DNA of 64,000 nt from Candidatus Bathyarchaeia archaeon (GCA_050010755.1 JBEKKK010000002.1:1-64000); one strand, 5' to 3'; positions 16,010-53,347 are shown, counted from the stretch's first letter. Made by a program: numbers and translations. The notes: generated by a model from the letters alone, not told the origin.

Positions 16010-17689
16010 TTGAAGGAGAAGAGTATCTTTGCTTATTCACTCACATTTCTCTTAATTCTCGGCGTTCTTTCATTACTCATGGCGCGGTATGGCCCTTCCA
16101 GCTCCTGGAAATTTCTGCTTGCCCTTTATCCGTTGGTCGTGATTCTGTTCGGGGTCGCCTTTCTGCGCAGAAGCGGTTTGTTCATGGCCGTGGTTGGCTT
16201 AGTGCTCGTCATCGCGTTGGCATTCCTGCAGTTCAGCACACCGTTTGAGGTGACTTTGCGTGCTTCATTGCACGGATTTCTCAGCAGTTTCGGGGTCTCA
16301 ATCTCGGTTGCTGCAACCATGCTGATGATATACCTCATGAAGGAAGCAGGCGCGCTTCAGACCGTTTCCAAAGTCATCAAGCAGCAAGTAATCGGTGATG
16401 AAGTCCGAGCGTTATACATCGGAATCGGCTTCGGCTCCTTCCTCACTTCCCTTGGCGTTGTCACTCCGGCACTGTTTCCTCCCCTCCTTCTGGCAATGGG
16501 TTTCAGCCCACTTGCTTCCATTGCCATAGCCGTTCTCGGCTACAATGCCACAACGAGCTTTGCGTTACTATCCATTCCCATAACTCTTCCAGCCTCCACT
16601 TTCGGCTTCAACCCCTTGGCCTTAGCCTTCAAAATCTCTGCTTTTCTACCCGTAATTTCAACGGGCTTTGCCTTTGCCGTCCTCTGGTTAATAGGCGGGA
16701 AAAAGTCGATGCGTAAAGGCGCCGTTCCGGCGCTAATCAGCGGCTTGGTTCTGGCCTTCGCCTGTCTTGCAACAACAAGCCTCGACTACTTCACCGGAGT
16801 GCAAATCGTTCCTCTCACACTCGTCGGAGTCATAGCAGGACTCTCCGCTATGCTCTCACTTCACCTGTATCAGAGACTCAAGCCCACACATGCAGAAGTA
16901 GTCAAGGATGCCGACTATCCGCCGAACCGCGAGGTTTGGCGTTCCTTTTCCCCCTGGATAATCCTCTCAGTGCTGGCAGGGGTCACGAGTATAAGTCAGA
17001 TCAGTGATTGGCTCCTACATTTTCCAGGAGACGCGCAGGTGATCAGAGTCTTCTCCAACGAACCAATCAACCTGAAGATTCTAACAGAGCCCTACACCTG
17101 GATATTCATCGCCATACTCCTGTCACTTTTCACCCTCAAACCTACAAAAAGCCAGATGAAAACCGCCACGAGCGTCTGGCTCAAACATTTCCTCGGCCCA
17201 TTCCTAACCTACAGCCTCTACTTTTCAATATCCTTCGTGATGGCGTTCTCAGCAATGCAGATCGTAAACGGTGCCCTGAACACAAATCCCCCAGGCTTCA
17301 ACCAACTGAACATGAACGTGATTCTAGGCACAACACTCGCATCAGTATTCGGCGCGGGCTACATCTTCGTAGCCGCCTCACTCGGCCTCTTCGGCGCAAT
17401 AGTCGCCGGCTCAGAAACCAGCTCCAACATCCTCTTCTACAGCATCCAAAAAACCGCCACCAACAGCCTCGGCCTAAACTCAGACTTCATGACAATCTAC
17501 AGTAGCCACGCCGTAGCAGGAGGCGTCGCAAGCGCCGTGACCCCGGCCAAAATCAACAACGCCGTAGTCACCATAGACGAATCACACGAAATCGAATCAC
17601 AAATGATGAGAAAAAACCTCATCATCGCACTCGCCCTAACAATCGCAACAGGCATACTCACAGCCGTACTCATCAGCCTAGGAATCTAA
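16010..17689 (+). CDS. L-lactate permease (LctP) family transporter
   Basis: Many TM helices; GAIVAGSETSSNILF and GGVASAVTPAKI motifs. Confidence 0.8.
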   Translation: MKEKSIFAYSLTFLLILGVLSLLMARYGPSSSWKFLLALYPLVVILFGVAFLRRSGLFMAVVGLVLVIALAFLQFSTPFEVTLRASLHGFLSSFGVSISVAATMLMIYLMKEAGALQTVSKVIKQQVIGDEVRALYIGIGFGSFLTSLGVVTPALFPPLLLAMGFSPLASIAIAVLGYNATTSFALLSIPITLPASTFGFNPLALAFKISAFLPVISTGFAFAVLWLIGGKKSMRKGAVPALISGLVLAFACLATTSLDYFTGVQIVPLTLVGVIAGLSAMLSLHLYQRLKPTHAEVVKDADYPPNREVWRSFSPWIILSVLAGVTSISQISDWLLHFPGDAQVIRVFSNEPINLKILTEPYTWIFIAILLSLFTLKPTKSQMKTATSVWLKHFLGPFLTYSLYFSISFVMAFSAMQIVNGALNTNPPGFNQLNMNVILGTTLASVFGAGYIFVAASLGLFGAIVAGSETSSNILFYSIQKTATNSLGLNSDFMTIYSSHAVAGGVASAVTPAKINNAVVTIDESHEIESQMMRKNLIIALALTIATGILTAVLISLGI

Positions 17690-17789
17690 CACTCACATCT
17701 ATTTCGAAATTGTATTGCCGGAGCGTGAAAGAGCATCGAAGGGACCTTCCGCCGCTAGAGCGAGTGCGCTGTTTTTGAATAGACAGCTG

Positions 17790-17867
17790 CACGTAACATG
17801 GAAATTTACGCTTACACATTACAAAGCAACATTACAACAGACGTAAAGAAAAAAAGGGGAGGGGGGC
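17790..17867 (+). repeat. Dispersed repeat copy 5 (subtype C)
   Basis: Near-identical to copy 4: CACGTAACATGGAAATTTACGCTTACACATTACAAAGCAACATTACAACAGACGTAAAG-A7-GGGGAGGGGGGC. Confidence 0.95.
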
Positions 17868-17954
17868 ACGCTTCATGGTCGAAATTATAGCGTTATACGG
17901 CAAACTCACAAAAGTGGCGACCGACGCGCATGCCTTTTTTGACCCCCATTTTCT

Positions 17955-18042
17955 GAACACTGCACCACGCAACATGGAAACTTACAAAGCAACATTACAT
18001 TGCAACATTACATCTGATGTAAAGAAAAAAAGGGAGGGGGGC
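17955..18042 (+). repeat. Dispersed repeat copy 6 (subtype A)
   Basis: GAACACTGCACCACGCAACATGGAAACTTACAAAGCAACATTACATTGCAACATTACATCTGATGTAAAG-A7-GGGAGGGGGGC. Confidence 0.95.
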
Positions 18043-18211
18043 CAACTGGACGAAGCGAACGCACCTGAAACCGAAACGTTTCACAAGTTCTCACGATGGG
18101 CTGATGTTCATAAACGTACATTTCATCATCACTGTAAGGTAACGCTTAAATCCTGATTGATTCACACTTGCTAGTTCCAAAAAGTTTGCATATGTAAAGG
18201 AGAGAGAAAGA

Positions 18212-19819
18212 ATGTCAGAAAGAACCCATAAGAATAGCTCTTATCTAAACGGCAAATCAACCACCGGAAGCCAAACACGCGTCAAAGACACAAGCCCCAC
18301 AAGCGGAATGTGCCCCATATGCATCCGCGACTGCCCATTCCTCTGCGAAATAAGCCTATCAGCATTCAGAGGAAGAGAAGCACTCTACCCTGAACCAGCA
18401 CAGTTCGGAACAAGCACCGCAGGCGCCCTCAAAGACTTCGGACTAGACTGGTCACACTTCAACATACAAGCAGGCCTCTTCGAAGCAGAAGGCACCGAAC
18501 CCATCAGCGACGTCATGATATTCCCCAACGTAAAACTCGAAACCAAAGTCGGAGGCATACAACTCAAACTCCCCATCCTCAACGGAGCCTTCGGCTCAAC
18601 AGACGTCGCAAGACTCAACTGGGAAGGACTCGCAATAGGCGCAGCCCTCGCAGGCACCTCTGTCATAGTAGGAGAAAACGTCGGCGGCATGGACGCAGAA
18701 GCACAAATCACCGGAGGCAAAATCACCCAATCCAAAGAACTCAAACGCAGAGTAGACCTATTCAGAAAATTCTGGGACGGAAAGAACGGAGACATAGTAA
18801 TACAGACCAACGTTGAAGACCAGAAACTCGGCGTCGACGTCTACGCCATCTCAAAACTCGAAGTAAACGTCATCGAAAGAAAATGGGGACAAGGCGCAAA
18901 AGCCATCGGCGGCGAAGTCCGCGTGAGAGACCTAGAAAAAGCCATCCTGCTCAAGAAAAGAGGCTACGTAGTCATCCCAGACCCGGAAGATCCCAACGTC
19001 CAAAAAGCATTCAAAGACGGCGTATTCAAATCCTTCGAAAGACACAGCAGAGTAGGCATACCCAAAGAGAAACCATTCATCGAAGACATCGAATGGCTCA
19101 GAAAACAAGGAGCAAAACACGTAACACTCAAAACAGGAGCATACAGACCATCAGCCGTCGCCTGGACAATGAAAATGGCATCAGAAGCCAAAATCGACTA
19201 CCTTTCCTTCGACGGCGCCGCAGGCGGAACAGGCATGAGCCCAGTGCCAATGATGGACGAAATGAGCATCCCAACAGTCTACCTTGAATCCATCGTCCTC
19301 AGATGCGCACAGATACTGAAAAAGAAAGGACGCTACGTTCCAGACCTCATAATGGCCGGCGGATTCATCGAAGAAACATCCATATTCAAAACCCTCGCCA
19401 TGAGCAACTTCGGAAACGGCCCATTCATAAAAGCCGTCCTCCTCGGACGCTCACCAATAACCGCCGTCATGAAATCCAGCTACTTCAAACAACTATCCGA
19501 AGAAGGCAAACTGCCAAAATCCTTCTCCGACAAATTCGGTTCAACCCCAGACAAATTCTTCATCGCAACACCCGAACTCAAAGCAAAATACGGCACACGC
19601 TTCAAAGAAATACCCTACGAAGCCATAGGAATGTACACCTACCTAACAGACAGAATAGGCGTAGGACTCAAACAACTACTCGCAGGAAACAGAAAATGGA
19701 AACTAGAACTCGCTAACAGAAACGACCTCATGAGCCTATCTGAAAGAGCCACCAAAGTCACGGGCATACCAATGGCCGACGAAGTAGAAAAAGACGCAAT
19801 CGAAAGAATCCTCGAATAA
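18212..19819 (+). CDS. FMN-binding glutamate synthase family protein
   Basis: CPICIRDCPFLCE, KWGQGAKAIGGE, DGAAGGTGMSP and MAGG motifs. Confidence 0.9.
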   Translation: MSERTHKNSSYLNGKSTTGSQTRVKDTSPTSGMCPICIRDCPFLCEISLSAFRGREALYPEPAQFGTSTAGALKDFGLDWSHFNIQAGLFEAEGTEPISDVMIFPNVKLETKVGGIQLKLPILNGAFGSTDVARLNWEGLAIGAALAGTSVIVGENVGGMDAEAQITGGKITQSKELKRRVDLFRKFWDGKNGDIVIQTNVEDQKLGVDVYAISKLEVNVIERKWGQGAKAIGGEVRVRDLEKAILLKKRGYVVIPDPEDPNVQKAFKDGVFKSFERHSRVGIPKEKPFIEDIEWLRKQGAKHVTLKTGAYRPSAVAWTMKMASEAKIDYLSFDGAAGGTGMSPVPMMDEMSIPTVYLESIVLRCAQILKKKGRYVPDLIMAGGFIEETSIFKTLAMSNFGNGPFIKAVLLGRSPITAVMKSSYFKQLSEEGKLPKSFSDKFGSTPDKFFIATPELKAKYGTRFKEIPYEAIGMYTYLTDRIGVGLKQLLAGNRKWKLELANRNDLMSLSERATKVTGIPMADEVEKDAIERILE

Positions 19820-19901
19820 AAAACCTCTCTTTTTTTATATTTTCTAAGCAACATTTAAAAGCGTTGACTTGTCTAGCCAAATGAAAATAGAGGTATCATC
19901 C

Positions 19902-21149
19902 ATGGCAACACAGACAGCCCTATCCGTAGCCCTAGAACAGCTGAACATAGCTACGGACAAGCTAAAACTCGATTCAGGCCTCCGCGATATGCTAGCAAAC
20001 CCAAAACGCTCACTACTCGTTTCCATTATAGTAAAAATGGACGACGGAAACATAAACGTCTTCAACGGTCTCCGCGTGCAACACTGGGACGCCCGAGGAC
20101 CCTTCAAAGGCGGCATAAGATACCACCCGAACGTCACCCTGGACGAGGTGTCCGCCCTAGCAATGTGGATGACCTGGAAATGCGCCGTAGTAGACATCCC
20201 CTACGGTGGAGCCAAGGGAGGAATCTGCTGCAACCCCAAGAAGATGTCAAAGGGCGAGCTGGAAAGAATGACAAGACGCTTCACGAGCCTCCTATACGAC
20301 TTCATCGGACCCTACCGCGATGTGCCAGCCCCCGACGTCTACACAGACTCCCAAACCATGGCATGGATAATGGACACTTACAGCCAAATAAGAGGCTACA
20401 GCGTCCCAGAGTGCGTCACCGGAAAACCCCTAAGCGTAGGCGGCTCTGAAGGAAGATCCGAAGCAACCTCGCTAGGCGTTGATGTCTGCGCAAGAGAGGC
20501 TGCAAAACAAATGGGACTAAAACTAAAAGGAGCAACAGTCGCCGTTCAAGGTTTCGGCAACGTAGGCTGGAACGCCGCCAAAATAGCGTACGACATGGGA
20601 TGCAAAATCCTAGCAGTGAGCGATTCAACCGGAGGAATCTGCACCTCAAAAGGCTTGAACCCCTATCAAGTCTATGACCATAAATCCAAAACCGGATCCG
20701 TCCTTAACTTCAAAGGAACCGAAAACATAACGAACAAGGAAATACTCGAAACAAAATGTGACATCCTAATACCCGCAGCACTGGAAAACCAGATAACCAA
20801 AACAAACGTAGACAAGATAGACACAAAGATAGTAGCTGAGGGGGCAAACGGACCAACGACACCAGAAGCCGACAGAGCACTCCACGAAAAAGGAATCGTA
20901 CTAATCCCAGACATCCTCGCAAACTCTGGAGGAGTCGCAACAAGCTATTTCGAGTGGGTTCAAAACCTAACCCGCGAGCACTGGGCCTTAGAAGATGTCT
21001 GCAAGAAACTGGAGAACAAAATGGTAAAAGCATTCTACGACGTCCACAAACTAGCCAACAAAGAAGAGAGCGATTTACGCACTGCGGCTCTAATGCTCGG
21101 TGTGGGAAGAGTTGCTGAAGCAATAAAGACCCTGGGCCTGTGGCCATGA
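19902..21149 (+). CDS. gdhA: Glutamate dehydrogenase
   Basis: RGPFKGGIRYHP, GGAKGG, DVPAPD, QGFGNVG, EGANGP and SYFEW motifs. Confidence 0.96.
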   Translation: MATQTALSVALEQLNIATDKLKLDSGLRDMLANPKRSLLVSIIVKMDDGNINVFNGLRVQHWDARGPFKGGIRYHPNVTLDEVSALAMWMTWKCAVVDIPYGGAKGGICCNPKKMSKGELERMTRRFTSLLYDFIGPYRDVPAPDVYTDSQTMAWIMDTYSQIRGYSVPECVTGKPLSVGGSEGRSEATSLGVDVCAREAAKQMGLKLKGATVAVQGFGNVGWNAAKIAYDMGCKILAVSDSTGGICTSKGLNPYQVYDHKSKTGSVLNFKGTENITNKEILETKCDILIPAALENQITKTNVDKIDTKIVAEGANGPTTPEADRALHEKGIVLIPDILANSGGVATSYFEWVQNLTREHWALEDVCKKLENKMVKAFYDVHKLANKEESDLRTAALMLGVGRVAEAIKTLGLWP

Positions 21150-21305
21150 GAACATAGGGTGAAAAGATACTCTCTCGTTCTCACATTCCAAGAAAGTAAT
21201 CTCATTATTTATCCCCTCACACTCTTTAATCTAAACTTTTAAGCAGCAATCTCCATCTTGTCCTGCACCGACTGCAATGGATCGAGTACCGAGAAGGGGA
21301 AGAAT

Positions 21306-21875
21306 ATGCCACGAACTGTCGCGTCAAAAATCGCCTCTCAAGATTTCTGCTTTGAGAACTCGATAGTAAGGATACTTGCAAACAGAGCCTCCCCTGAAAT
21401 CAAACTCGGAGGTCTATGCGTGGGCCCCTTTGAGGAAGGGAACGAATACGAAGTTTATTTTTGGACAGCTCTAGAGCTCGAAAAGTCAGGAATCGCCCGC
21501 ATTCATGAAGAAGAAAAAGTTGATGCGGCCAAGCTTAACAAGATTCAATGGACTGAGCGCATCCAGAGTCCTGGCCAAATATCTAAAATTCCTGAGAGTT
21601 TCTACCCGAAAGTTCGAAGATACCTGAAGAACTTGAAGCAAGAGATTGTGAGAGATCCCGAAAAGGTGCGCGAATACGAAAGAGTCAGACAATTGGCTCA
21701 GGACATCGTGAATTCGAGAATGAAGAAAATCATCTCCATCGCCTCAACCCCAGCCCAAACTGAAAATGCATTGAGAAATCTTGCAGACGAGGAAAAGTTT
21801 CTCTACGAAAAGCTGTTCAAGCTTATCTCCCAGTGGAAGACCCAAATAATAGAACAACAAGAGGGACGCAGATGA
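21306..21875 (+). CDS. GINS subunit Gins23 (Psf2/Psf3-like)
   Basis: B-domain-first layout; overlaps the mcm start, the usual gins23-mcm operon. Confidence 0.8.
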   Translation: MPRTVASKIASQDFCFENSIVRILANRASPEIKLGGLCVGPFEEGNEYEVYFWTALELEKSGIARIHEEEKVDAAKLNKIQWTERIQSPGQISKIPESFYPKVRRYLKNLKQEIVRDPEKVREYERVRQLAQDIVNSRMKKIISIASTPAQTENALRNLADEEKFLYEKLFKLISQWKTQIIEQQEGRR

Positions 21876-23908
21876 CCGAAGAACTGGAGGCTGTGGACCC
21901 ACAAGAACGATTTCAAGATTTCCTAAAGACGGAAAGATACCGTCAAAGGATCTCACAGATGGCATTGGCAGGCATGACATCACTGGTAATGGAGTTTGAA
22001 GATCTTCTGGCCTTTGATCAAAGGTTAGCAGAGGAACTGCTAGAAAAACCCGAAGAATACCTCAAGCACGCCAATAATGCCGCGTTTGCCCAGCTGCAGA
22101 TAGAAGATCCAGAATACGCCGAAAAAGCCACAACCGTGAATGTTAGAATCGTACGTCTATTAGAAGCGGAGCCACTGCGTAAACTCGGTTCAAGGCAGAT
22201 TGGCAAACTCGTAATGATTGAAGGGATCGTAGTTCGTTCATCACCAGTCCGCCCTATGGTCATGCAAGCGGCATTCAAGTGCAAAAGATGTGGAACGTTG
22301 AACCCAGTGAACCAGACAGGCACATACCTAAAAGCACCTTTTGCATGCAGCAGCCCAGATTGCGGATCAAAGGGGCCATTCGAATTTGTCCAAGAGGAAT
22401 CGACCTTCATAGACTCTCAGGAGCTACGAGTCCAAGAAAGACCCGAAGACTTGCCACCAGGACAACTGCCCAGAACGCTGAGCATCAAGCTGGTTGGAAC
22501 CGAAATCGTTGACATCGCAAGACCCGGCGACGACGTTTCCACAGTAGGAATAGTGCACGCTTTCGCACCGACACTGCCAGGCGTCGGAAAGCTTCGAACC
22601 TTCATTCTCCACTTGGATGCCAACTCAATCGAGGTTCTTGGGAAAGAACCAGAAACGGCGCAGCCGTCGCCGGAAGAAGAACAAAAAATCCTCGAACTCG
22701 CGAAGGATCCGTGGGTGCATCGCAAAATAATAGGCTCGATCGCTCCATCAATCTACGGCTACGATCACATCAAAGAGGCAATAATGTACCTCTTGTTCGG
22801 AGGTGTGCCAAAGACGCTGCCGGACATCTCGATAAGAGGAGAGCTAAACGCGCTAATAGTGGGCGACCCCGGAACTGCAAAATCTCAGTTGTTGCAATAC
22901 GTAGCAAGAATCGCACCTCGAGGCCTATACACGTCTGGGAGAGGCACCACGGCCGCAGGCTTGACGGCTGCAGTAATCCGAGAAAAGGGAGGCGGAATGA
23001 GCCTCGAAGCTGGAGCCTTGGTGCTGGCTGACAAGGGAATTGCATGCATCGACGAAATGGATAAGATGCGCCCAGAGGACAGGGTAGCAATCCATGAGGC
23101 CATGGAACAACACACCGTATCAGTTGCAAAAGGCGGCATCGTAGCAACACTCAATGCCAGAGCGGCGATCCTTGCGGCTGCAAATCCCGCATTGGGAAGA
23201 TACGAACCGCACCGTACCGTTGCTGAAAACATCTCCTTGCCAGTAACGATACTCTCCAGGTTTGACGTCATCTTTGTGTTAAGAGACGTACCGAACAAGG
23301 AATCAGACACGAAGATGTCTGAACACATCCTCGAGATACACAGGAAAGGTGCCAGCCCTATTGAACCACCAATAACGGTGGAACTCCTACGGAAATACAT
23401 CAGCTATGCTAAGGGAGTGAAGCCTGTTCTAGGCCAAGAAGCCCTCAAACGTCTAGGGGATTTCTATTTGGCAATGCGTTCGGCCAGCGAAACAGAAGGC
23501 TCACCCGTGGCAATCACCGCACGACAACTGGAGTCTCTCGTCCGAACAGCCGAAGCAAGAGCCCGCGTGGCTCTCAGAAAAGAAGTAACGGCCGAAGATG
23601 CGGAAGCTGCGGTGGCAATCATGAAAAAATCGCTCGAAGAAGTCGGCATAGACCTGTCCTCGTACAAAATAGACATAGATATAATTATGACAGGAAAACC
23701 CAAAAGTATGAGAGATCGGCTGCAAATAATCCTCTCAGCGCTGATTGAAATGGAGAAAGAAACCGGAATGGTCGAAAGAGCGGCACTGTTCGACGAGCTT
23801 GAAACAAAATACAAGATTCCAAGAGGAGAGGCAGATCGTCTCACAGGACAACTGCTACGTGAAGGAACAATTTACGAACCCAGAGAAGGCTACCTCAAAA
23901 AAACATAG
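21872..23908 (+). CDS. mcm: Replicative helicase MCM
   Basis: GDPGTAKSQ, IDEMDKM, EAMEQ, AAANP and SRFD motifs; Zn finger; C-terminal wHTH. Confidence 0.98.
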   Translation: MTEELEAVDPQERFQDFLKTERYRQRISQMALAGMTSLVMEFEDLLAFDQRLAEELLEKPEEYLKHANNAAFAQLQIEDPEYAEKATTVNVRIVRLLEAEPLRKLGSRQIGKLVMIEGIVVRSSPVRPMVMQAAFKCKRCGTLNPVNQTGTYLKAPFACSSPDCGSKGPFEFVQEESTFIDSQELRVQERPEDLPPGQLPRTLSIKLVGTEIVDIARPGDDVSTVGIVHAFAPTLPGVGKLRTFILHLDANSIEVLGKEPETAQPSPEEEQKILELAKDPWVHRKIIGSIAPSIYGYDHIKEAIMYLLFGGVPKTLPDISIRGELNALIVGDPGTAKSQLLQYVARIAPRGLYTSGRGTTAAGLTAAVIREKGGGMSLEAGALVLADKGIACIDEMDKMRPEDRVAIHEAMEQHTVSVAKGGIVATLNARAAILAAANPALGRYEPHRTVAENISLPVTILSRFDVIFVLRDVPNKESDTKMSEHILEIHRKGASPIEPPITVELLRKYISYAKGVKPVLGQEALKRLGDFYLAMRSASETEGSPVAITARQLESLVRTAEARARVALRKEVTAEDAEAAVAIMKKSLEEVGIDLSSYKIDIDIIMTGKPKSMRDRLQIILSALIEMEKETGMVERAALFDELETKYKIPRGEADRLTGQLLREGTIYEPREGYLKKT

Positions 23909-23924
23909 TTAGTCTCCTATGTAT

Positions 23925-24698: not shown

Positions 24699-24865
24699 TC
24701 TTTAGGACTCTCCATCTTCAAGGCCATTCGGAATCTTAGGTACTTGTCTTCAGGTGAGAATTTTGGCGGGTGAGGCACTTTGAGTCCCCCGCCACAGTAT
24801 GGGCATACACTCCTATTCAATGTGTAACTTCCACATTGCCGACATTTCCTCAGCAGCAAAACCAT
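24695..24865 (-). CDS. nop10: H/ACA RNP protein Nop10 (not in ORF track)
   Basis: MVLLLRKCRQCGSYTLNRSVCPYCGGGLKVPHPPKFSPEDKYLRFR. Confidence 0.93.
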   Translation of the reverse strand: MVLLLRKCRQCGSYTLNRSVCPYCGGGLKVPHPPKFSPEDKYLRFRMALKMESPKE

Positions 24866-25653: not shown

Positions 25654-25666
25654 GTGACCCTCGCCC

Positions 25667-25864: not shown

Positions 25865-25883
25865 GAGAGTCCTCCTCAAACAA

Positions 25884-44168: not shown

Positions 44169-44377
44169 CGGGGGCGTTCCGAGAAAGGCAGGGACTTGTT
44201 GGGCGCGAGTTGCAATATTGTGTTTTTCATCATCCATCGTGGATGGTTTATTGTCAAACAGCCGGGACGTCGGACGGAACCGTTAAGAAGGGGAAACCGT
44301 TTTGTGGCTGATTTCGGAATTGACATCCGAGTGAGGGTTGTGGGGCGATGAAAAGGTAAAGTTTAAAATGCACCCTA

Positions 44378-48623: not shown

Positions 48624-49996
48624 TCCGTCCAGACACCCCGTCCTAGCCCTCGGTATAGGAAACCTTCCTTTTCAATCTTGCTAGGGTCGGCTACGCCCTG
48701 CAGGTCGATTATGGCTGCGGGCATTTTCATCGTGAGCTTCATTTTCTTGAGGTTCAGGCGTTTGAACTGGTCGTGTGCCGTCAAGATTATTACGCAGTCA
48801 GCGCGTTCCATGGCTTCGGTTGAGTCTTTTTTGAAGTGATACGAGGTTTCTGCAATTTCGGTTTCTAACACGTGCGGGTCGTAAATGCTTATTTTTGCTC
48901 CTCTTGCTTCTAGAGTGTCGATGATTTTTCTTGCTGTTTTCTTGATGGGGCTTTGCATGTTGGGGGTTTGTGTGACTCCCAGAATGGCAATTCTTGCTCG
49001 TTTCATTGTTTTTCCACAGTCTTTCAACGCATCCTTGACTAGGTTGGCCACGTGTCTAACTGTCTCTTCGTTCGTGTCTCTTGCCGCCATTGCCAGTCGA
49101 GGCTTAAGGTTGAGGCTTTCGGCATCATTCAACAGAACGTATGGCTTATCGCTGAGACTGTCGTCCAGGAGCGTCGGTGTGGGAGACAGCTTGTCAATGT
49201 CTGTCCCAGCGATTCTGACGGCTTCAGTGTAGTCCACGCCTACTTTTTCACAGAGGAGTGCAGTTTCATTTCCTAACGCGATGCTTACGTCCCGCTGTAG
49301 GACTTCGAGGAGCGCGGCCACTTCAGCCGTTTTCATGTCGCCTGTTCCTCGGACGCCTCGTTTAGCAAGCTTTTCAAGAACGAGTGAAGCACTTCTGAGG
49401 CTGTCCTTGTCGGTTGCTGCGACGACTCTCTGATAATTTGCGGCTTCCTCACAAGTCGAGGCGTGCACTTTTTGAATTGGACTGTACGCCAGTCCGAAGT
49501 CCTTGCCGATTTTGAGTCCTGAAGTGTTTTCCAATGTGTCTTTTATGAGGCCTTCTGTGAGGCCGATTCCGGTTAGGCTCGTAACTATTACGAGGGATCC
49601 GGGGCGAAGGTTTGAGCCGATTTTTTTGCAGGTGTTTTCTAAGTCTGAGCACTCTGCTTTTTTCCTCAGGTTGATTTTTACGGGGGTTGTGATTATGATT
49701 AGGTCGCTGTGGGCGGCCGCTTCTCCGATTTCACTGGTTGCGGTCAAGTGTCCTGTTTTCACGTGGTTTTTGAGTTTGGTCCATATTTCTGACGTCGCCG
49801 CGGCCCTTCCCTTTGTTATGCGTGCGATCGTGGTTTGGTCAGTGTCCACGCAGGTCACCTTGAAGCCTGCGTCGGCAAAGAGAACCGCTTGAAGAATGCC
49901 GGCTTGTCCACATCCTATTATACTTACAACACGGTTTCCCCGTTTTTCCGGGGAATCTAGATCCTCTGATTTGGTTTGTATCATCGACGATGACAT
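48620..49996 (-). CDS. Nucleotide-sugar dehydrogenase family protein, catalytic motifs degenerate
   Basis: GCGQAG, DFGLAYSP, RDVSIALGNE, YDP and TAHDQF scaffold present; GGHC motif absent. Confidence 0.85.
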   Translation of the reverse strand: MSSSMIQTKSEDLDSPEKRGNRVVSIIGCGQAGILQAVLFADAGFKVTCVDTDQTTIARITKGRAAATSEIWTKLKNHVKTGHLTATSEIGEAAAHSDLIIITTPVKINLRKKAECSDLENTCKKIGSNLRPGSLVIVTSLTGIGLTEGLIKDTLENTSGLKIGKDFGLAYSPIQKVHASTCEEAANYQRVVAATDKDSLRSASLVLEKLAKRGVRGTGDMKTAEVAALLEVLQRDVSIALGNETALLCEKVGVDYTEAVRIAGTDIDKLSPTPTLLDDSLSDKPYVLLNDAESLNLKPRLAMAARDTNEETVRHVANLVKDALKDCGKTMKRARIAILGVTQTPNMQSPIKKTARKIIDTLEARGAKISIYDPHVLETEIAETSYHFKKDSTEAMERADCVIILTAHDQFKRLNLKKMKLTMKMPAAIIDLQGVADPSKIEKEGFLYRGLGRGVWTE

Positions 49997-50029
49997 TGGG
50001 TTGTTCTCCGCGGGCTTTGTCTTAGCTGT

Positions 50030-51403
50030 TTAGCTTAGGTCTTTGATTATTTTTTGGAGTTTCGAGCTGTATTCTTTGACGAGTTTTTTGGTTGTTTGGC
50101 TGGTTTTGGCTTCGGCGTATATTCTGTAGATTGGTTCGGTGCCGCTTGGCCTTATTAGTATGCTGCTCTTGTCTTTGAACCAGATTTTGACGCCGTCGAG
50201 AGTGTTCGTTTTTAGGCCTTTGGTTTGTTCGATGAGTTTTTGCAGGATTTCTTGTTTGAGTTCTTCTTTGCATTCGATTTTGGCTTTTTCGATGAAGTAT
50301 AGGGGTAGTTCTTTTATGAGTGTGGAGAGTTTTTTGCCGGTTCTGGCCATGATGTTCAAGATTAATGCTGTTGTCATCGCGCCGTCTCTGACTGGCTGGT
50401 GAGGTCCGTAGAAGACTCCGCCGTTTTCTTCGCCTCCGAGTTTGGCTTTCAGTTCTTTCATGGTTTGTGCGACTGTTACGCTTCCTATTTTGGTCCATTC
50501 GATTTTTCCGTTGTATTCGTCGGCTATGTCCTGGATTATGGTTGAGGAGCTCACGGGTGTGACGATTTTTTCGCCTGGGTTGTCTTTCAGAAAGTATTTG
50601 GCGACGAGGGCGAAGGTTTGGTCTCCCATGATGATGTTGCCTTTCTCGTCGACGAAGATGGAGCGGTCCGCGTCGCCATCATATGCTACTCCTAGGTCTG
50701 AGTTTGTTGCCTTGACGGCGATGGCTAGGTCTCCTAGGTTTTCGGGGCGGGGTTCGGGTGGTCTGCCTGGGAATGTTCCGTCTATGTTCGCGTTTATCGT
50801 CGTGACCTTGCATCCTAGTTCTCGGGCGAGGCGTGGTCCTGTCAGGCTGCCTACGCTGTTTGCTCCGTCGATTAGGATGTGGTAGTGTTTCTGGGTTATT
50901 GCTTTGGTGTTGACGTGTTTTTTTATGGCGTTGATGTATTCGTCGATTATTCCTGGCAGTTCTTGCGTTGTTCCCAGTGCGTTCCATGGGGCGAGCTTTG
51001 CTTTTTCGTTGAAGTAGATGTTTTCGATTTCGATTTCATATTCGTGTGGTATTTCTATTCCGTCGTTTCCTATGACTTTGATTCCGTTGTATTCCGGCGG
51101 GTTGTGTGATGCTGTGATGATGACTCCGCCGCTGGGCTTGTGATGTTTCACGGCGAACTGGAGTGTCGGCGTCGGAGCCATCCCTGCTAGGAGGACGTTG
51201 CATCCTGTCGAGTTTAGGCCGGCGACGACGGCCTTTTGGAGCATGGGTCCTGTGGTTCTGGCGTCGTGGCCGATTATGAGTTCGCCTTGTTTGAAGAAGG
51301 TGCCTATGGCACTGCCGACTTTGATGGCCATTTCGGGGGTGAGTTCTTTGTTGGCGAGGCCGCGGATGCCGTTGGTGCCGAATAAGTGTTTTGAGGTTAA
51401 CAT
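50030..51403 (-). CDS. glmM: Phosphoglucosamine mutase/phosphomannomutase
   Basis: FGTNGIRG, TASHNP, DGDADR, GEENG and RPSGTEP motifs. Confidence 0.92.
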   Translation of the reverse strand: MLTSKHLFGTNGIRGLANKELTPEMAIKVGSAIGTFFKQGELIIGHDARTTGPMLQKAVVAGLNSTGCNVLLAGMAPTPTLQFAVKHHKPSGGVIITASHNPPEYNGIKVIGNDGIEIPHEYEIEIENIYFNEKAKLAPWNALGTTQELPGIIDEYINAIKKHVNTKAITQKHYHILIDGANSVGSLTGPRLARELGCKVTTINANIDGTFPGRPPEPRPENLGDLAIAVKATNSDLGVAYDGDADRSIFVDEKGNIIMGDQTFALVAKYFLKDNPGEKIVTPVSSSTIIQDIADEYNGKIEWTKIGSVTVAQTMKELKAKLGGEENGGVFYGPHQPVRDGAMTTALILNIMARTGKKLSTLIKELPLYFIEKAKIECKEELKQEILQKLIEQTKGLKTNTLDGVKIWFKDKSSILIRPSGTEPIYRIYAEAKTSQTTKKLVKEYSSKLQKIIKDLS

Positions 51404-51428
51404 GATCTGATGAGCCTCTTTCTTTCTA

Positions 51429-52514
51429 TCAGACGCAGTTAGATGTTAATACGCTTTCGGAGACTTCGTTTGCTGGGCAGATTGTGGTTCCCTGGGCGAG
51501 GGACACGTCGTTTTTTATTTTGGCGTGGTCGCCGATTATGCAGCCTTTCTGGATTTTGGCTCTTTCTCCGATGATTGCGCCTTCGCCGATTATTGCGCCC
51601 GTTATAATAGAAGAGTCTTGTATGATGGCTCCTGAGAAGATGATTGAATCTATTATCTGCACGTTTTTTCCGATGATGACATCCTTGCCCAAGACTGCGT
51701 ATGGTCCCAGGGTGGTTTCTTGTCCTATGCGGACGTTTTTGTCGATGGCCACGGGTTTCTCGAAGTTTACGTTCTTGGCTGGTCTGCTTTTCTGTTGTTC
51801 GTTTGTGTTGTTGAGCATTTTTCGGTTGATTTGCATGTAGTCTTCGGGTTTGCCGATGTCCATCCATGTGCCGTTGAAGGTGTGTGCGTAGAGTTTGCCT
51901 TCTTGGGCGAGTTTTGGGAAGATTTCGTGTTCGATGCTGACGGCTCGTCCTTCGGGGATGTAATCGAAGATTTGGGGGTTGAAGGCGTAGGCTCCGGCGT
52001 TGATGAGGTTTGAGGGGGCGGTTCCTTGTGGGGGTTTTTCGACGAATCTTGTTATGCGGTTGTCTTGGGCTAGTTGGACGACTCCGTATCTGCTCGGGTC
52101 TTCTACGCTGTGGACGGCTAATGTTGCTACTGCTTTGTTTTGTTTGTGGGTTTGCATGAGTTCTGTGTAGTTTACGTCTGCGAATATGTCTCCGTTGAGT
52201 ACGATGAAGGGTTGGTCGTGTCCGATTCGTTTTTCTGCTCTTTTTATTGAGCCGCCGGTTCCTAGGGGTTTTCTGAGTGGATCATGCGAGTAGGTTACGT
52301 GGACGCCGGATCTTGGGACTCGGTGGTGTTTTATGTACATCTCGGTTTGGTAGAAGACAGCCATTATGGCGTCTTGTATGTTGTTGCGTGCGAGTCTTTC
52401 ATAAGTCCACTGAAGCAGGGGTTTGTTGACTATGGGGAAGAGTATTTTTGGTCTTGTGCAGCTGAGCGGTCTCAGTCTTGTGCCGAAGCCCCCTGCGAGA
52501 ATAACTGCCTTCAG
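51429..52514 (-). CDS. NDP-sugar pyrophosphorylase (nucleotidyltransferase with hexapeptide repeats), probable CTG start
   Basis: Frame extends 150 nt past the ORF-track start to give LKAVILAGGFGTRLRPLSCTRPK; also LGTGG, NGD and WMDIG motifs. Confidence 0.9.
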   Translation of the reverse strand: MKAVILAGGFGTRLRPLSCTRPKILFPIVNKPLLQWTYERLARNNIQDAIMAVFYQTEMYIKHHRVPRSGVHVTYSHDPLRKPLGTGGSIKRAEKRIGHDQPFIVLNGDIFADVNYTELMQTHKQNKAVATLAVHSVEDPSRYGVVQLAQDNRITRFVEKPPQGTAPSNLINAGAYAFNPQIFDYIPEGRAVSIEHEIFPKLAQEGKLYAHTFNGTWMDIGKPEDYMQINRKMLNNTNEQQKSRPAKNVNFEKPVAIDKNVRIGQETTLGPYAVLGKDVIIGKNVQIIDSIIFSGAIIQDSSIITGAIIGEGAIIGERAKIQKGCIIGDHAKIKNDVSLAQGTTICPANEVSESVLTSNCV

Positions 52515-52588
52515 GGTTTTTTCACCGCCATTAATAATGTAGGTTTATATGCGGTGTGTTTGCTAATAAAACAGTTTGGTGTTGAAGT

Positions 52589-53347
52589 TTGAAGGTTTTG
52601 CTTCATGAGATGAGTTGGCCTGAGGCTAAGGAGTACTTTTCGAAGAACGACATTGCGATTCTTCCAGTTGGCGCTAATGAGCAGCATGGGGGGGCGAACC
52701 CGTTGGGGACGGATCATCTTATTGCCAAGAGCATCGGGGAGGAGACTGCGAGGCGCACGGGCGTTGTGTGTCTGCAGGTTGTTCCGTTCGGTGTTAGCGC
52801 GCATCATAAGCAGTTTTGGGGGACGATTTTTATTTCTCCTAAGTCGTTGAAGAGTTACGTTAGAGACGCGTGCCAGTCTCTCATGTATTATGGTGTGCGT
52901 AAGATTGTGGTTGTTAACGGTCACGGGGGTAATTTGGCGGCTTTGACGGAGTTGGCTAGGGAGTTGAGGGAGGAAGGGGTTTTCATGTCTGTTTTTCAGT
53001 GGTGGCCCGCGGCTGGGAAGCTTGTGCCCGACGTTTTCACCGCTATAGAACGGAGGCACGCAGGGGCTGAGGAAACATCTGTGAATCTGGCTTTACACCC
53101 GAACCTTGTCAACATGAAAGCAGCGTTTGATGAGAAGCCTCGTGAACACGCGTTACAAGGCGAAGGCCTAACACTACCGTTAAGCACGGTGGATGAGACA
53201 GGCTCAGGCGTTTACGGGACACAATCAACAGCTTCGGCAGAAAAAGGCAAGAAAGTCCTGGAAGCCTGCATAAGCGAGCTAGTCAGACACGTCAACCTGC
53301 TGAAGAAGGCAAGAATGGACGATCTAATACAGAAGCCGAAGGTCTAA
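52589..53347 (+). CDS. Creatininase family amidohydrolase
   Basis: PVGANEQHG, LGTD, NGHGGN and HAGAEETS motifs. Confidence 0.92.
   Translation: MKVLLHEMSWPEAKEYFSKNDIAILPVGANEQHGGANPLGTDHLIAKSIGEETARRTGVVCLQVVPFGVSAHHKQFWGTIFISPKSLKSYVRDACQSLMYYGVRKIVVVNGHGGNLAALTELARELREEGVFMSVFQWWPAAGKLVPDVFTAIERRHAGAEETSVNLALHPNLVNMKAAFDEKPREHALQGEGLTLPLSTVDETGSGVYGTQSTASAEKGKKVLEACISELVRHVNLLKKARMDDLIQKPKV

What the first reader, a model, noticed from the sequence alone, without database searches (positions are those of the whole stretch)
17050..53000. Local kb-scale strand-composition halos centred on the repeats, independent of gene direction
Seen by eye plus spot counts: near + copies the + strand is A/C-rich (18541-18600 is 41/60 A+C in a + gene; 9181-9240 has 27 C versus 12 G in a - gene). 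Near - copies it is G/T-rich (36541-36600 is 47/60 G+T in a + gene; 34441-34500 is 43/60 in a - gene). Strong zones are ~17.0-20.4, 33.8-37.9, 40.6-43.8 and 50-53 kb, reaching about 2-3 kb on the G-tail side and under 1 kb on the other. The bias fades within single genes (lctP, gdhA, rfcS). Inference: a site-anchored, strand-asymmetric mutational process, such as long-lived ssDNA deamination (C>T, A>G) from helicase loading, strand displacement or polar fork pausing.
Basis: partly seen in the sequence, partly recalled or inferred. Interest (0 to 1): 0.88.

Follow-up and report, generated by a model that had tools for sequence, protein, structure and literature searches.

The report
Repeat-anchored strand-bias halos in a Bathyarchaeon
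In this peat archaeon, copies of a small oriented repeat each sit beside a few kilobases where one DNA strand is strongly A/C-rich whichever way the genes point; I know of no matching case in a cellular chromosome.

Summary
The window belongs to a 2.19-Mb Bathyarchaeia genome assembled from metagenomes. That genome carries 79 copies (46 clusters) of a ~75-nt polar element: ATTACA-type iterons, a short dyad, an A7 run and a G4AG5 tail.

At fourfold-degenerate sites, the strand carrying the G tail is A/C-rich for about 3-4 kb beyond the tail and about 1 kb before it. This holds in co-oriented genes (keto skew to -0.51) and in anti-oriented genes (to -0.35). Baselines are -0.05 and +0.05.
- 39 of 45 clusters show the expected sign.
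- 0 of 26 element-bearing skew zones have an element in the wrong orientation.
- Orthologues in a congener that lacks the nearby element are unskewed (-0.40 versus -0.05), so the halos are derived.
- A lineage-specific 19-kb inversion with elements at both breakpoints put new genes next to elements, and only those genes became skewed.

Polarised changes on the element-sense strand are mainly T>C and G>A. The reverse changes are suppressed about 4-fold, and some transversions are also biased.

Expression-linked codon usage, gene-strand bias, replichore skew and motif arrays are rejected. The mechanism is unresolved. My best guess is recurrent strand-specific excision and resynthesis, or exposure, anchored at the element.

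The parts
1320..1405 (+). element copy (single); weak or no halo
   Evidence: nhmmer 60 bits; fourfold skew 0-2.5 kb downstream +0.02
6491..6582 (+). element copy (single)
   Evidence: nhmmer 74 bits; downstream fourfold skew -0.33
8404..8677 (+). cluster of two element copies (8404-8495, 8593-8677), directly after the stop of the anti-oriented aRF1 gene
   Evidence: aRF1 by Pfam; downstream fourfold skew -0.24 with only anti-oriented genes
8061..9894 (.). halo: + strand A/C-rich across a minus-strand gene (aRF1), fading within that gene
   Evidence: third-position keto -0.54, -0.60, -0.58, -0.30, -0.08
17784..18047 (+). cluster of two element copies at the left breakpoint of the lineage-specific inversion
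17403..20946 (.). halo: + strand A/C-rich. It rises within the 3' part of lctP (upstream side), plateaus over the Glu-synthase-like gene and gdhA, and has a weak tail to about 23.7 kb
   Evidence: per-gene fourfold skew lctP -0.40, gltS-like -0.87, gdhA -0.61, against -0.39 to +0.19 in four congeners
18100..36870 (.). about 19-kb segment inverted relative to all four congeners; element clusters in inverted orientation sit at both junctions
   Evidence: tblastn synteny, spacer comparison, inverted-repeat pairs I1, I4, I5, I7
33417..38413 (.). halo: + strand G/T-rich across minus-strand genes (priL, PCNA), plus-strand genes (hypA, mrp) and, on the element's other side, rfcS
   Evidence: hypA +0.75 and mrp +0.69 coding-strand fourfold skew, against -0.23 to +0.38 in congeners
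36878..37335 (-). cluster of three element copies (36878-36969, 37057-37151, 37247-37335) at the right inversion breakpoint, 10 bp after the mrp stop
   Evidence: one population variant lacks about 220 bp here (joint 37043>37264)
40301..44717 (.). halo: + strand G/T-rich, declining smoothly over five minus-strand genes (SHMT, small ORF, translin-like, EndoV, HD)
   Evidence: third-position keto 0.86 falling to 0.21 over 4.5 kb
44083..44178 (-). element copy inside an about 340-bp insertion, relative to G002, in the SHMT/x44378 divergent spacer
48780..53219 (.). halo: + strand G/T-rich over plus-strand creatininase and minus-strand NTP-transferase and PGM, with a lower shoulder to about 47.7 kb
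53360..53555 (-). cluster of two (diverged) element copies, 13 bp after the creatininase stop
13700..14400 (.). A/C-rich patch without an element, next to tRNA-Gly; unexplained exception

Best explanation
The ~75-nt polar element marks a site where a strand-specific DNA transaction recurs. The element has ATTACA-type iterons, the dyad TTACATCnGATGTAA, an A7 run and a G4AG5 polypurine tail.

My preferred version is this. The strand carrying the G tail (the sense strand) is nicked at or near the element. It is then removed and resynthesised over a tract that runs far in its 5'>3' direction (about 3-4 kb, occasionally 8 kb) and a short way in the other direction (about 1 kb). The complementary strand is therefore the exposed single strand and always the template. 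Lesions on it (A>hypoxanthine, C>uracil, abasic sites) become fixed as T>C, G>A, G>C and T>A on the sense strand. Lesions on the sense strand are discarded with the excised DNA.

Over evolutionary time this drives synonymous sites to 70-90% A+C on the sense strand, whatever the gene orientation.

Shown here: the anchoring, the polarity, independence from gene direction, derived status and the substitution spectrum.
Inferred: that the cause is mutational or repair-based rather than selective; the nick; the excision-resynthesis tract; and which enzyme acts.
For: 1. Anchoring and polarity.
- The mean fourfold keto skew on the sense strand is -0.28, -0.51, -0.48, -0.30, -0.29, -0.32, -0.23, -0.19 and -0.13 in successive 0.5-kb bins downstream for co-oriented genes. 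It is -0.32, -0.35, -0.27, -0.21, -0.14, -0.13 and 0.00 for anti-oriented genes. Baselines are -0.05 and +0.05. It is also -0.27 to -0.45 in the first kb upstream, in both orientations.
- 39/45 clusters are negative.
- 26 of 77 strong zones hold an element in the predicted orientation and 0 hold one in the other. Of the diverged copies found later, 3 lie in or beside a further listed zone, each in the orientation that zone's sign predicts.

2. Derived status.
- Among 1194 reciprocal-best orthologues, genes 0-1 kb downstream of an element have -0.399 in G000 and -0.052 in G002. The difference is -0.347 +/- 0.045 (co -0.365, n=13; anti -0.330, n=13).
- The difference decays to -0.240, -0.147, -0.093 and -0.042 by 4-6 kb.

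3. Natural experiment.
- All four congeners share the order rfcS<|>gltS ... mrp>|<lctP. G000 inverted the 18.1-36.9 kb segment and has elements at both junctions.
- The newly adjacent genes are skewed only in G000: lctP -0.40 versus 0.00 to +0.19; mrp +0.69 versus -0.18 to -0.08; hypA +0.75 versus -0.23 to +0.38.

4. Spectrum on the G000 branch (fourfold sites where all four congeners agree, sense strand, 463 sites).
- T>C 51/85, G>A 17/55, G>C 12/55, T>A 10/85.
- Reverse changes: C>T 7/169, A>G 8/154, C>G 3/169, A>T 2/154.
- Controls (400 sites) are symmetric at 0.12-0.19 for transitions (Fisher tests).
- Raised forward changes together with lowered reverse changes, at nearly unchanged total divergence (145/463 versus 100/400), is what replacement of one strand predicts.

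5. Shape. The sign is the same on both sides. The upstream flank is steep: third positions go from -0.06 at -1.5 kb to -0.45 at -0.3 kb. The downstream plateau is long.

6. It is a compositional bias, not a motif array. No 5- or 6-mer exceeds z = 3.7 beyond a Markov expectation.

7. It is not linked to expression. Ribosomal-protein genes have fourfold keto -0.04 to +0.35, and 16 tRNA genes show no halo.

8. The DNA is real. Contigs from three other runs match long stretches of the window (up to 9.4 kb) with no differences.
Against: - No nick, gap, binding protein or transcript was observed. The excision-resynthesis step is pure inference.
- The substitution pattern (every keto>amino class up, every amino>keto class down) is also the signature of a fixation bias or selection with a scaled coefficient of about 2-3.
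- Unannotated intergenic DNA inside strong halos is much less skewed (-0.18) than fourfold sites (-0.53). A purely mutational process does not obviously predict this.
- Halos are about twice as strong where downstream genes are co-oriented, so transcription matters in some way.
- Congeners have weaker halos at PCNA-priL and rfcS|gltS without a G000-type element there.
- Halo size does not correlate with copy number, G-tail length or model score.
- G002 has 95 copies of a related element but almost no halo. The difference to G000 orthologues is -0.07 +/- 0.04, and a generic tail motif gives 13/34 negative sites.
- Parsimony polarisation at these divergences (median 86.6% amino-acid identity) is affected by multiple hits.
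- Gene calls come from my own caller. They were checked by Pfam only in the window, and indirectly through orthology.
Confidence: 0.45

Rival explanations
1. Reverse causality. The halos are produced by some other local determinant, and the elements are mobile passengers. They insert, or survive, preferentially in pre-existing skewed DNA in one orientation, for instance because insertion uses whichever strand is habitually single-stranded there.
For:
- Congeners show moderate halos at PCNA-priL and across rfcS|gltS without a G000-type element at those places.
- There is no dose-response with copy number or element quality.
- 6 of 45 clusters have no halo.
- G002 elements have almost none.
- The element is clearly mobile or rearranging: its positions are species-specific, there is an about 340-bp insertion at SHMT, and copies sit at inversion breakpoints.
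Against: - The averaged profile is focused on the element. Skew rises steeply towards it from upstream and plateaus just beyond the G tail. Random insertion into broad zones would not give this shape.
- Genes brought next to elements by the inversion (lctP, mrp, hypA) are skewed only in G000.
- Orthologue contrasts anchored on element positions, not on skew, give -0.35 at 0-1 kb, decaying with distance.
- The orientation rule has no exception among element-bearing zones (0 of 26).
Confidence: 0.2
2. Antisense transcription with R-loop feedback. Read on the complementary strand, the element is C4TC4 followed by T7, an archaeal oligo-T terminator. Transcripts running towards the element leave the complementary (non-template) strand single-stranded. 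Its deamination raises G+T, and G-rich RNA then forms R-loops more readily, reinforcing the bias until it becomes extreme.
For: - 21 of 44 clusters have an anti-oriented gene on the G-tail side; 17 of these stop 6-112 bp from the G tail and the other four 191-364 bp, so the element is placed like their terminator.
- The most conserved columns are exactly the A7 run and G-tail.
- The sign fits the usual rule that the non-template strand becomes keto-rich.
- The bias continues a short way past the element, like read-through.
- A feedback loop would explain the extreme values, halos without elements, and why one species shows the effect and another does not.
Against: - Halos are strongest over operons made only of co-oriented genes: gltS-gdhA -0.76, SHMT operon -0.77, C1:473 kb -0.73. 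There the model needs antisense transcription to outweigh the genes' own transcription.
- tRNA flanks (presumed highly transcribed) show no halo, and ribosomal-protein genes show at most mild coding-strand keto-richness.
- The decline is smooth across several gene boundaries.
- No transcript data exist to support it.
Confidence: 0.15
3. Replication-based. The element is a polar fork barrier, or an origin-like or abortive initiation site resembling an ORB. Paused or locally initiated forks expose one template strand, or use a lower-fidelity polymerase on one strand, near the element.
For: - The dyad, A-rich spacer and G-string layout resembles archaeal origin recognition boxes (resemblance recalled, layout).
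- The polypurine tail resembles RNA-primer-forming tracts such as the retroviral PPT, mitochondrial CSB II and ColE1 (recalled).
- Elements are polar, and the window is rich in replication genes.
- G·T-type misinsertion while copying the sense strand would give the same T>C and G>A excess (inference).
Against: - The sign is the same on both sides of the element, not the antisymmetric jump expected at an origin.
- Halos are 2-8 kb long, not replichore- or inter-origin-scale, and the 1.44-Mb contig has no replichore-scale skew.
- Only one orc1/cdc6 gene was found, with no element within 15 kb.
- Elements of both orientations lying 17 kb apart both have halos: C1:1290512 (+) -0.47 and C1:1307405 (-) -0.45. 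This is hard to reconcile with forks arriving from one side.
- Clusters are direct repeats, not inverted pairs around an AT-rich unwinding region.
Confidence: 0.1
4. Selection on strand composition itself. An A/C-rich sense strand, or a G/T-rich complement, is functionally favoured near the element. Examples would be a G/T-rich 3' single strand preferred by the recombinase, or unstructured A/C-rich RNA. Synonymous sites respond because they are free to.
For: - All four keto>amino changes are raised and all four amino>keto changes are lowered, with little change in total divergence. This is the classical signature of a fixation bias.
- The effect is large at synonymous sites and small but same-signed at positions 1 and 2, and in amino-acid usage.
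Against: - No motif is enriched beyond base composition.
- The same DNA strand is favoured whether it is mRNA-like or not, so RNA-level selection is excluded.
- Intergenic DNA, which should also be free to respond, is much less skewed.
- The congener with related elements lacks the effect.
- Selection of scaled strength about 2-3 at thousands of synonymous sites would be unusual.
Confidence: 0.1

Closest known systems
Vertebrate mitochondrial heavy/light-strand asymmetry (strand-displacement replication from the control region)
   Same: Synonymous sites reach about 70-90% A+C on one strand. The excess comes mainly from A>G and C>T on the other strand. The bias grades with distance from a cis-acting non-coding site, is independent of gene direction, and shifts amino-acid usage. 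The control region also carries a G-run/A/G-run block (recalled).
   Different: Here there are about 46 separate sites in a 2.2-Mb cellular chromosome, each with a 2-8 kb reach. The strand carrying the G tail is the A/C-rich one, which is the opposite of mtDNA, where the G-rich block lies on the G/T-rich strand (recalled). Transversions are also biased and reverse changes are suppressed. No replication intermediates are known.
Replication-associated GC/keto skew of bacterial and archaeal replichores, and skew jumps at eukaryotic origins
   Same: Strand-asymmetric composition at synonymous sites attributed to a polar DNA transaction.
   Different: Those skews are antisymmetric about origins and termini, extend over 10^4-10^6 bp, and are typically small. 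Here the sign is the same on both sides, the reach is a few kb, fourfold skew is 0.5-0.9, and there is no replichore-scale trend. Two papers I consulted attribute archaeal skews largely to gene-strand bias: I read the abstract and the opening of the text of 10.1101/2023.11.15.567178 and passages of PMC12999951. Here that is explicitly not the cause.
Transcription-associated strand asymmetry and R-loop-linked GC skew at promoters and terminators; promoter-anchored somatic hypermutation
   Same: kb-scale bias decaying from a fixed cis site, and a possible role for the element as an oligo-T terminator on the other strand.
   Different: Transcription-linked skews follow the gene's own strand. Here co- and anti-oriented genes carry the same DNA-strand bias, and ribosomal-protein genes and tRNA flanks do not show this bias.
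REP/BIME elements, MITEs and other small intergenic repeats of prokaryotes
   Same: Short, species-specific, intergenic, clustered, preferentially at gene 3' ends, and associated with rearrangements.
   Different: There is no stable palindrome, no terminal inverted repeats, and no Y1 (RAYT-type) transposase found in G000. I know of no report that such repeats carry compositional halos; searches found none.
Archaeal origin recognition boxes (ORB / mini-ORB)
   Same: Polar element with a dyad, an A-rich spacer and a G-string (layout; the comparison itself is recalled).
   Different: Copies are dispersed in about 46 places as direct repeats. They are not beside the single orc1/cdc6 gene and do not flank an AT-rich unwinding element, and the skew pattern is not origin-like.

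Membership tests
Replichore-type replication skew | Sign switches at origin and terminus; extent on the replichore scale | tested here: not met
   50-kb bins along the 1.44-Mb contig fluctuate without trend; halos are 2-8 kb
Replichore-type replication skew / origin skew jump | Antisymmetric skew about the anchoring site | tested here: not met
   Same sign upstream and downstream of the element
Gene-strand / codon-usage skew | Bias follows the coding strand | tested here: not met
   Anti-oriented genes carry the opposite coding-strand bias: fourfold -0.32 to -0.35 on the element-sense strand. Orthologue contrast: co -0.365, anti -0.330. Pfam-verified examples: hypA, mrp, creatininase, aRF1
Gene-strand / codon-usage skew | Strongest in highly expressed genes | tested here: not met
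   Ribosomal-protein genes have fourfold keto -0.04 to +0.35; 16 tRNA genes show no halo
mtDNA-type single-strand-exposure asymmetry | Excess of C>T and A>G on one strand, grading with distance from a cis site | tested here: met
   T>C 51/85 and G>A 17/55 on the sense strand, against reverse 7/169 and 8/154; distance decay
mtDNA-type single-strand-exposure asymmetry | Asymmetry confined to deamination-type transitions | tested here: not met
   G>C 12/55 versus 2/78 in controls (p = 8e-4); T>A 10/85 versus 4/108
mtDNA-type single-strand-exposure asymmetry | Strand-displacement replication intermediates | not testable with these tools
   No experimental data; uncultured organism
Archaeal ORB / replication origin | Located beside orc1/cdc6, in inverted pairs around an AT-rich unwinding element | tested here: not met
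   Single Cdc6_C match at C1:514945-515223; the nearest elements are about 15 and 23 kb away; clusters are direct repeats
Archaeal ORB / replication origin | Dyad plus G-string architecture | tested here: inconclusive
   The layout is present, but no ORB reference sequence was compared; the resemblance is recalled
REP/BIME with RAYT | Stable palindromic stem-loop | tested here: not met
   Only a 6-bp hairpin; fold z-scores -0.7 to -1.5; 0 consensus pairs in 12 copies
REP/BIME with RAYT | Y1 (HUH) transposase gene in the genome | tested here: not met
   PF01797: 0 matches in G000 (93% complete), matches in 3 of 4 congeners
MITE | Terminal inverted repeats and target-site duplication | tested here: inconclusive
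   Conservation is one-sided with no terminal inverted repeat. The empty-site comparison at SHMT shows an about 340-bp insertion with unconserved flanks and no clear duplication
Structured non-coding RNA | Match to an Rfam family or conserved secondary structure | tested here: not met
   No Rfam match at gathering score (window) or at E<=1 (36800-37450); no consensus structure

The most novel reading that the evidence does not exclude
A dispersed family of about 80 polar cis-elements in an archaeal chromosome each launches a short, strand-specific DNA transaction. This could be nick-directed excision and resynthesis, or abortive R-loop- or polypurine-primed synthesis. It reaches about 1 kb one way and 3-8 kb the other. 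Each such locus would then behave like a small mitochondrial control region and be driven to near-mitochondrial strand asymmetry. The activity is switched on in this lineage but not in a congener with related elements, so a lineage-specific trans factor is implied. One unproven candidate is the extra small cytidine-deaminase-fold gene at 10067-10489.
Probability: 0.3. Interest if true: 0.92.

Novelty: categorically new. Interest (0 to 1): 0.85.

Why it matters
If the halos are footprints of a site-anchored, strand-specific DNA transaction, they reveal a process that leaves a readable record in sequence alone. That matters most in an uncultured archaeal class, where no genetics exists.

The finding would also be a counter-example to the view that archaeal skews merely mirror gene orientation. 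It would provide dozens of independent natural replicates, with both gene orientations and with orthologous controls, for separating mutation, repair and selection at synonymous sites.

It has practical consequences too:
- Local skew this strong (fourfold sites 70-90% A+C) distorts codon-usage statistics, gene finders, skew-based origin prediction and phylogenetic models for the affected genes.
- It slightly shifts amino-acid composition.
- The elements also mark rearrangement breakpoints.

Tried and rejected
- Expression-linked codon usage: rejected. Ribosomal-protein genes and tRNA flanks show no such bias.
- Gene-strand bias: rejected.
- Motif array: rejected. No k-mer is enriched beyond composition.
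- Structured RNA: rejected.
- Viral origin of the element: a degenerate core pattern has 0 matches in viral contigs.
- Dose-response of halo size with copy number, G-tail length or model score: none found (Spearman |r| <= 0.19).
- Element remnants at the edges of 17 element-less zones: none.
- Generality of a generic A-run/G-run tail:
  - G000: 63/76 sites negative.
  - G002: 13/34 negative.
  - 76 other Bathyarchaeia PCNA loci: only 10 sites, 6 negative. No support outside G000.
- Loss of a repair gene in G000: UDG and NucS are present in all five congeners.
- My first gene caller, a 4th-order periodic Markov model, missed atypical genes such as hypA. I replaced it with a composition-tilted codon model that reproduced every Pfam-verified strand call tested.
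- Early on I assumed an Archaeoglobus-like thermophile from genome size and GC content. That was wrong. The titles of related records and the holder runs point to peat and wetland Bathyarchaeia.
- RNA evidence: no RNA holder is listed among the 17 runs found, so expression around the elements could not be examined.
- Population polarisation: contigs of X4, X5 and X8 match long stretches of the window with no differences. X3 carries a diverged strain only at 45.8-53.3 kb, with symmetric difference counts. The listing was also truncated, so no polarised SNP spectrum could be made.
- Literature: searches returned no paper on repeat-anchored local skew or on Bathyarchaeia skew.
  - I read only the abstract and the opening of the text of 10.1101/2023.11.15.567178 and passages of PMC12999951.
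  - All other titles were seen as search listings only.
  - Supplements were not consulted.
- The script cap (40) was reached. Congeners G001, G003 and G004 were therefore analysed only over the 40-kb syntenic region, not genome-wide.

Full report
**What the window is.** The window is the first 64 kb of contig C2 of a 2.19-Mb, 8-contig genome with 47.7% G+C. Archaeal replication genes are present: PCNA, primase large subunit and RFC small subunit. The nearest relatives of its PCNA in public genomes nearly all carry the title Candidatus Bathyarchaeia or Bathyarchaeota MAG. The DNA is held by 17 peat, wetland, soil and sediment metagenome runs. My early guess of an Archaeoglobus-like thermophile was wrong. 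This is an uncultured Bathyarchaeon of a kind found in peat; completeness is 93% and contamination 4.4%.

**The repeats.** The window holds 12 copies of one element.
- + copies: 1320, 6491, 8404, 8593, 17784, 17958.
- - copies: 36878, 37057, 37247, 44083, 53360, 53473.

A profile built from these copies finds 79 hits in the genome. 69 of them score at least 40 bits and form 46 clusters: 28 single, 13 double and 5 triple, with copies about 180 bp apart in direct orientation. Conservation spans about 75 nt and stops right after the G tail. The element has a CAACATGG box, two or three GCAACATTACA-type units, the dyad TTACATCnGATGTAA, an A7 run and a G4AG4-8 tail. The A-run and G-tail are the best conserved columns.

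The element matches no Rfam family, has no consensus secondary structure, and has no match in viral contigs. It sits in non-promoter spacers:
- The gene on its 5' side is co-oriented in 34 of 44 clusters (p = 4e-4).
- Divergent spacers are avoided (3 of 44).
- Of the 21 clusters whose gene on the G-tail side is anti-oriented, 17 have that gene stopping 6-112 bp from the tail; the other four stop 191-364 bp away. Read on that strand, the element is C4TC4T7, which looks like an oligo-T terminator.

**Checking the observation.** 1-kb windows reach GC skew +0.42 with AT skew -0.32, and AT skew -0.52 at 50-51 kb. Third-position keto skew at 300-bp resolution shows plateaus of 0.6-0.9 for about 3 kb on the G-tail side of each cluster.
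- The decline is smooth over five genes from 43.8 to 39.6 kb.
- There is a steep fade within about 1 kb on the other side. In lctP the skew goes from +0.14 to -0.88 towards the element. In rfcS it goes from +0.80 to +0.38, then -0.01 in the next gene.
- gdhA does not fade internally; the skew drops at its end.

**Is it gene direction?** Skewed DNA has few stop codons on either strand, so I built a gene caller that lets codon usage tilt along the keto/amino axis. It reproduced every Pfam-verified strand call I tested and rejected the shadow ORFs. It calls 2200 genes over 85% of the genome.

At fourfold-degenerate sites, read on the element-sense strand:
- Co-oriented genes show -0.28, -0.51, -0.48, -0.30, -0.29, -0.32, -0.23, -0.19 and -0.13 in successive 0.5-kb bins beyond the G tail (baseline -0.05).
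- Anti-oriented genes show -0.32, -0.35, -0.27, -0.21, -0.14, -0.13 and 0.00 (baseline +0.05).
- The first kilobase upstream shows -0.27 to -0.45 in both orientations.
- Codon positions 1 and 2 shift by only about 0.05.

Composition 0-1.5 kb downstream is A .31, C .41, G .16, T .13 in co-oriented genes and A .29, C .36, G .19, T .15 in anti-oriented genes. The genome coding-strand baseline is .25/.28/.24/.24. Two-fold sites agree.

The largest halo is C1:473-482 kb. It has co-oriented genes at -0.79 to -0.52 and anti-oriented genes at +0.51 and +0.60 on their own coding strand. So the bias belongs to a DNA strand defined by the element, not to the coding strand. It is about twice as strong where the downstream genes are co-oriented.

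**Statistics and controls.**
- 39 of 45 clusters are negative, 30 are below -0.2 and 20 are below -0.35.
- Of 2242 control anchors (spacers more than 6 kb from any element, both orientations), 7.5% fall below -0.2 and 1.5% below -0.35. The p-values are about 1e-23 and 1e-24.
- Of 77 zones with |keto| > 0.22 per kb, 26 hold an element in the predicted orientation and none holds one in the other. 14 of the 20 longest hold one.
- Iterated searches added eight diverged copies. Three of them lie in or beside a further listed zone (1238072, 1425913, C2:132502), each in the orientation that zone's sign predicts. A fourth (478635) lies inside the longest halo.
- Ribosomal-protein genes (fourfold keto -0.04 to +0.35) and 16 tRNA genes show no such bias.
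- No oligomer is enriched beyond composition.
- The 1.44-Mb contig has no replichore-scale skew.

**Comparison with relatives.** The element in its G000 form is species-specific. A 90-nt BLAST query finds 46 matches in G000, 0-6 partial ones in the four congeners, and none in 26 genomes of other genera.

Over the syntenic 40 kb, per-gene coding-strand fourfold skews in G000 versus G002, G004, G003 and G001 are as follows. Genes far from elements agree between species.

| Gene | G000 | G002 | G004 | G003 | G001 |
|---|---|---|---|---|---|
| lctP | -0.40 | +0.15 | +0.19 | n.a. | 0.00 |
| gltS-like | -0.87 | -0.37 | -0.38 | -0.39 | -0.27 |
| gdhA | -0.61 | -0.37 | -0.24 | -0.28 | -0.11 |
| hypA | +0.75 | +0.14 | +0.02 | -0.23 | +0.38 |
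| mrp | +0.69 | -0.09 | -0.08 | -0.18 | -0.15 |
| translin-like | -0.65 | -0.08 | +0.06 | -0.06 | -0.08 |
| SHMT | -0.84 | -0.36 | -0.30 | -0.29 | -0.08 |

I then fetched nearly the whole G002 genome (2.31 Mb) and paired 1194 reciprocal-best orthologues (median 86.6% amino-acid identity). I excluded orthologues that lie near a G002 element.
- G000 genes 0-1 kb beyond an element have sense-strand fourfold skew -0.399, against -0.052 in G002. The difference is -0.347 +/- 0.045 (co -0.365, n=13; anti -0.330, n=13).
- The difference falls to -0.240, -0.147, -0.093, -0.042 and +0.024 with distance.
- Upstream it is -0.119 at 0-1 kb and -0.148 at 1-2 kb.

The halos are derived in the G000 lineage and centred on its elements.

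**A natural experiment.** All four congeners share the order rfcL<rfcS<|>gltS>gdhA ... PCNA<|>hypA>mrp>|<lctP. In G000 the segment from gltS to mrp (18.1-36.9 kb) is inverted, and element clusters in inverted orientation sit exactly at both junctions. G000 keeps about 110 bp of the gltS-proximal ancestral spacer and about 30 bp of the rfcS-proximal spacer. The middle is replaced by elements, and the congeners' spacers hold none. The genes newly placed beside elements (the 3' end of lctP, mrp and hypA) are the ones skewed only in G000.

**Substitution spectrum.** I used fourfold sites where all four congeners agree, read on the element-sense strand, in 13 halo genes (463 sites).

| Change | Halo genes | Controls | Fisher p |
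|---|---|---|---|
| T>C | 51/85 | 13/108 | 2e-12 |
| G>A | 17/55 | 12/78 | 0.054 |
| G>C | 12/55 | 2/78 | 8e-4 |
| T>A | 10/85 | 4/108 | 0.048 |
| C>T (reverse) | 7/169 | 17/103 | 8e-4 |
| A>G (reverse) | 8/154 | 21/111 | 6e-4 |
| C>G (reverse) | 3/169 | 7/103 | 0.045 |
| A>T (reverse) | 2/154 | 6/111 | 0.072 |

The 14 control genes (400 sites) are symmetric. Total change is 145/463 in halo genes against 100/400 in controls.

However, every keto>amino class is raised and every amino>keto class is lowered, with no hypermutation. That pattern is also what replacement of one strand, or a fixation bias, would give. Parsimony at this divergence is imperfect.

**What argues for caution.**
Orthologues of genes in those zones are also less skewed in G002 (0.43 versus 0.17), but that comparison suffers from regression to the mean.
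- Congeners have moderate halos at PCNA-priL and across rfcS|gltS without a G000-type element there. Across 46 Bathyarchaeia loci, PCNA-priL averages -0.16.
- Unannotated intergenic DNA in strong halos is only -0.18, against -0.53 at fourfold sites.
- Halo size does not track copy number, tail length or model score.
- G002 has its own variant of the element (95 hits, 48 clusters), yet its halos are feeble. Co-oriented genes reach at most -0.22. The orthologue difference is -0.07 +/- 0.04. Only 7 of 64 zones have a correctly oriented element, and 2 have one in the other orientation.

So the element family alone is not sufficient. Something specific to the G000 element variant, or a G000 trans factor, is needed. 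Alternatively, the elements are passengers.

**Mechanism.**
- An origin-like reading fails because the sign is the same on both sides, there is a single orc1/cdc6 gene, and no element lies within 15 kb of it.
- A one-directional fork barrier is awkward because neighbouring elements of opposite orientation both have halos.
- Ordinary transcription-associated asymmetry would require transcription towards the element. That fits the terminator-like placement after anti-oriented genes, but not the stronger halos over purely co-oriented operons.
- The model that accounts for most features is recurrent removal and resynthesis of the sense strand from a discontinuity at the element, running far in the 5'>3' direction and a short way in the other. 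The features it covers are:
  - the same sign on both sides, with a long and a short arm;
  - independence from gene and replication direction;
  - raised forward and lowered reverse changes;
  - little extra divergence.
- In that model the complementary strand is the exposed, always-copied template. I give it 0.45. It remains an inference, because no nick, gap, protein or RNA was seen.
- The data fix which strand gains A and C. They do not fix the direction in which any machine travels.

**Novelty.** I found no report of repeat-anchored, kb-scale compositional halos that are independent of gene direction in a prokaryotic chromosome. The two archaeal skew papers I consulted attribute archaeal skews to gene orientation and translational selection (abstract and opening text; passages). 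The closest analogue in amplitude and spectrum is mitochondrial DNA. I rate the phenomenon categorically new as an observation, with the mechanism open.

Noticed in passing
window 18100-36870: A 19-kb inversion relative to all four congeners, with element clusters in inverted orientation at both breakpoints. It suggests recombination between elements, or an insertion-coupled inversion.
   Followed up: yes
window 10067-10489 (-): A 140-aa cytidine-deaminase-fold ORF just upstream of aRF1. It hits PF00383 at 38.8 bits. It resembles tetrameric CDD and blasticidin-S deaminases but falls below the NCBIfam equivalog cut-offs. A second such gene was not found in G001, G002 or G004. My gene caller did not call it. 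It is probably a salvage enzyme, but it is a lineage-specific deaminase in a genome with deamination-like halos.
   Followed up: partly
window 53593-55398 (-): A 601-aa ORF built of about 69-nt (23-codon) tandem repeat units (repeat finder families D1, D2, D6, D7). It is probably a repeat protein and was not annotated.
   Followed up: no
window 13700-14400, beside tRNA-Gly 14377-14454: An A/C-rich patch (third-position keto to -0.70) at the 3' end of a plus-strand gene, with no element detectable. Genome-wide, tRNA genes show no halo, so the tRNA is probably not the cause.
   Followed up: partly
G002 whole genome (e.g. G002:C13:67370-67420, between PCNA and hypA): The congener has its own variant of the element: 95 hits, with CATGG, TTACA units, a dyad-like ACATCTGAC, an A6 run and a G5 tail. 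Variants often occur in mixed tandem arrays of two or three sub-types, at different genomic places from G000's copies. They have almost no halo.
   Followed up: yes
L015 about 10335-10875 and L016 about 9820-10845 (PCNA-hypA spacers of G001 and G003): Each congener has different short direct repeats and extremely A/C-rich, nearly G/T-free non-coding DNA upstream of PCNA on the PCNA-sense strand.
   Followed up: no
window 37043-37264 in run X3: A population variant joins 37043 to 37264 with 29 other letters in between. That strain therefore lacks about one element unit of the three-copy cluster. Depth at the elements is 8-10 times that of the flanks, as expected for a multicopy repeat.
   Followed up: no
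G000:C1 (1.44 Mb): There is no replichore-scale GC or TA skew, and only one orc1/cdc6 gene (C1:514945-515223). The element halos are the dominant strand asymmetry of this genome.
   Followed up: partly
G000:C1:154651-163143: An 8.5-kb zone in which about 11 same-strand genes have a G/T-rich coding strand, with no element nearby. It may be an operon of hydrophobic membrane proteins (composition driven by amino acids). This was not checked at fourfold sites or by annotation.
   Followed up: no
window 30244-32712 and 37420-39697: Adjacent paralogue pairs: x30244/x31540 at about 28% identity, and rfcS next to the large RFC subunit at about 28% identity.
   Followed up: no
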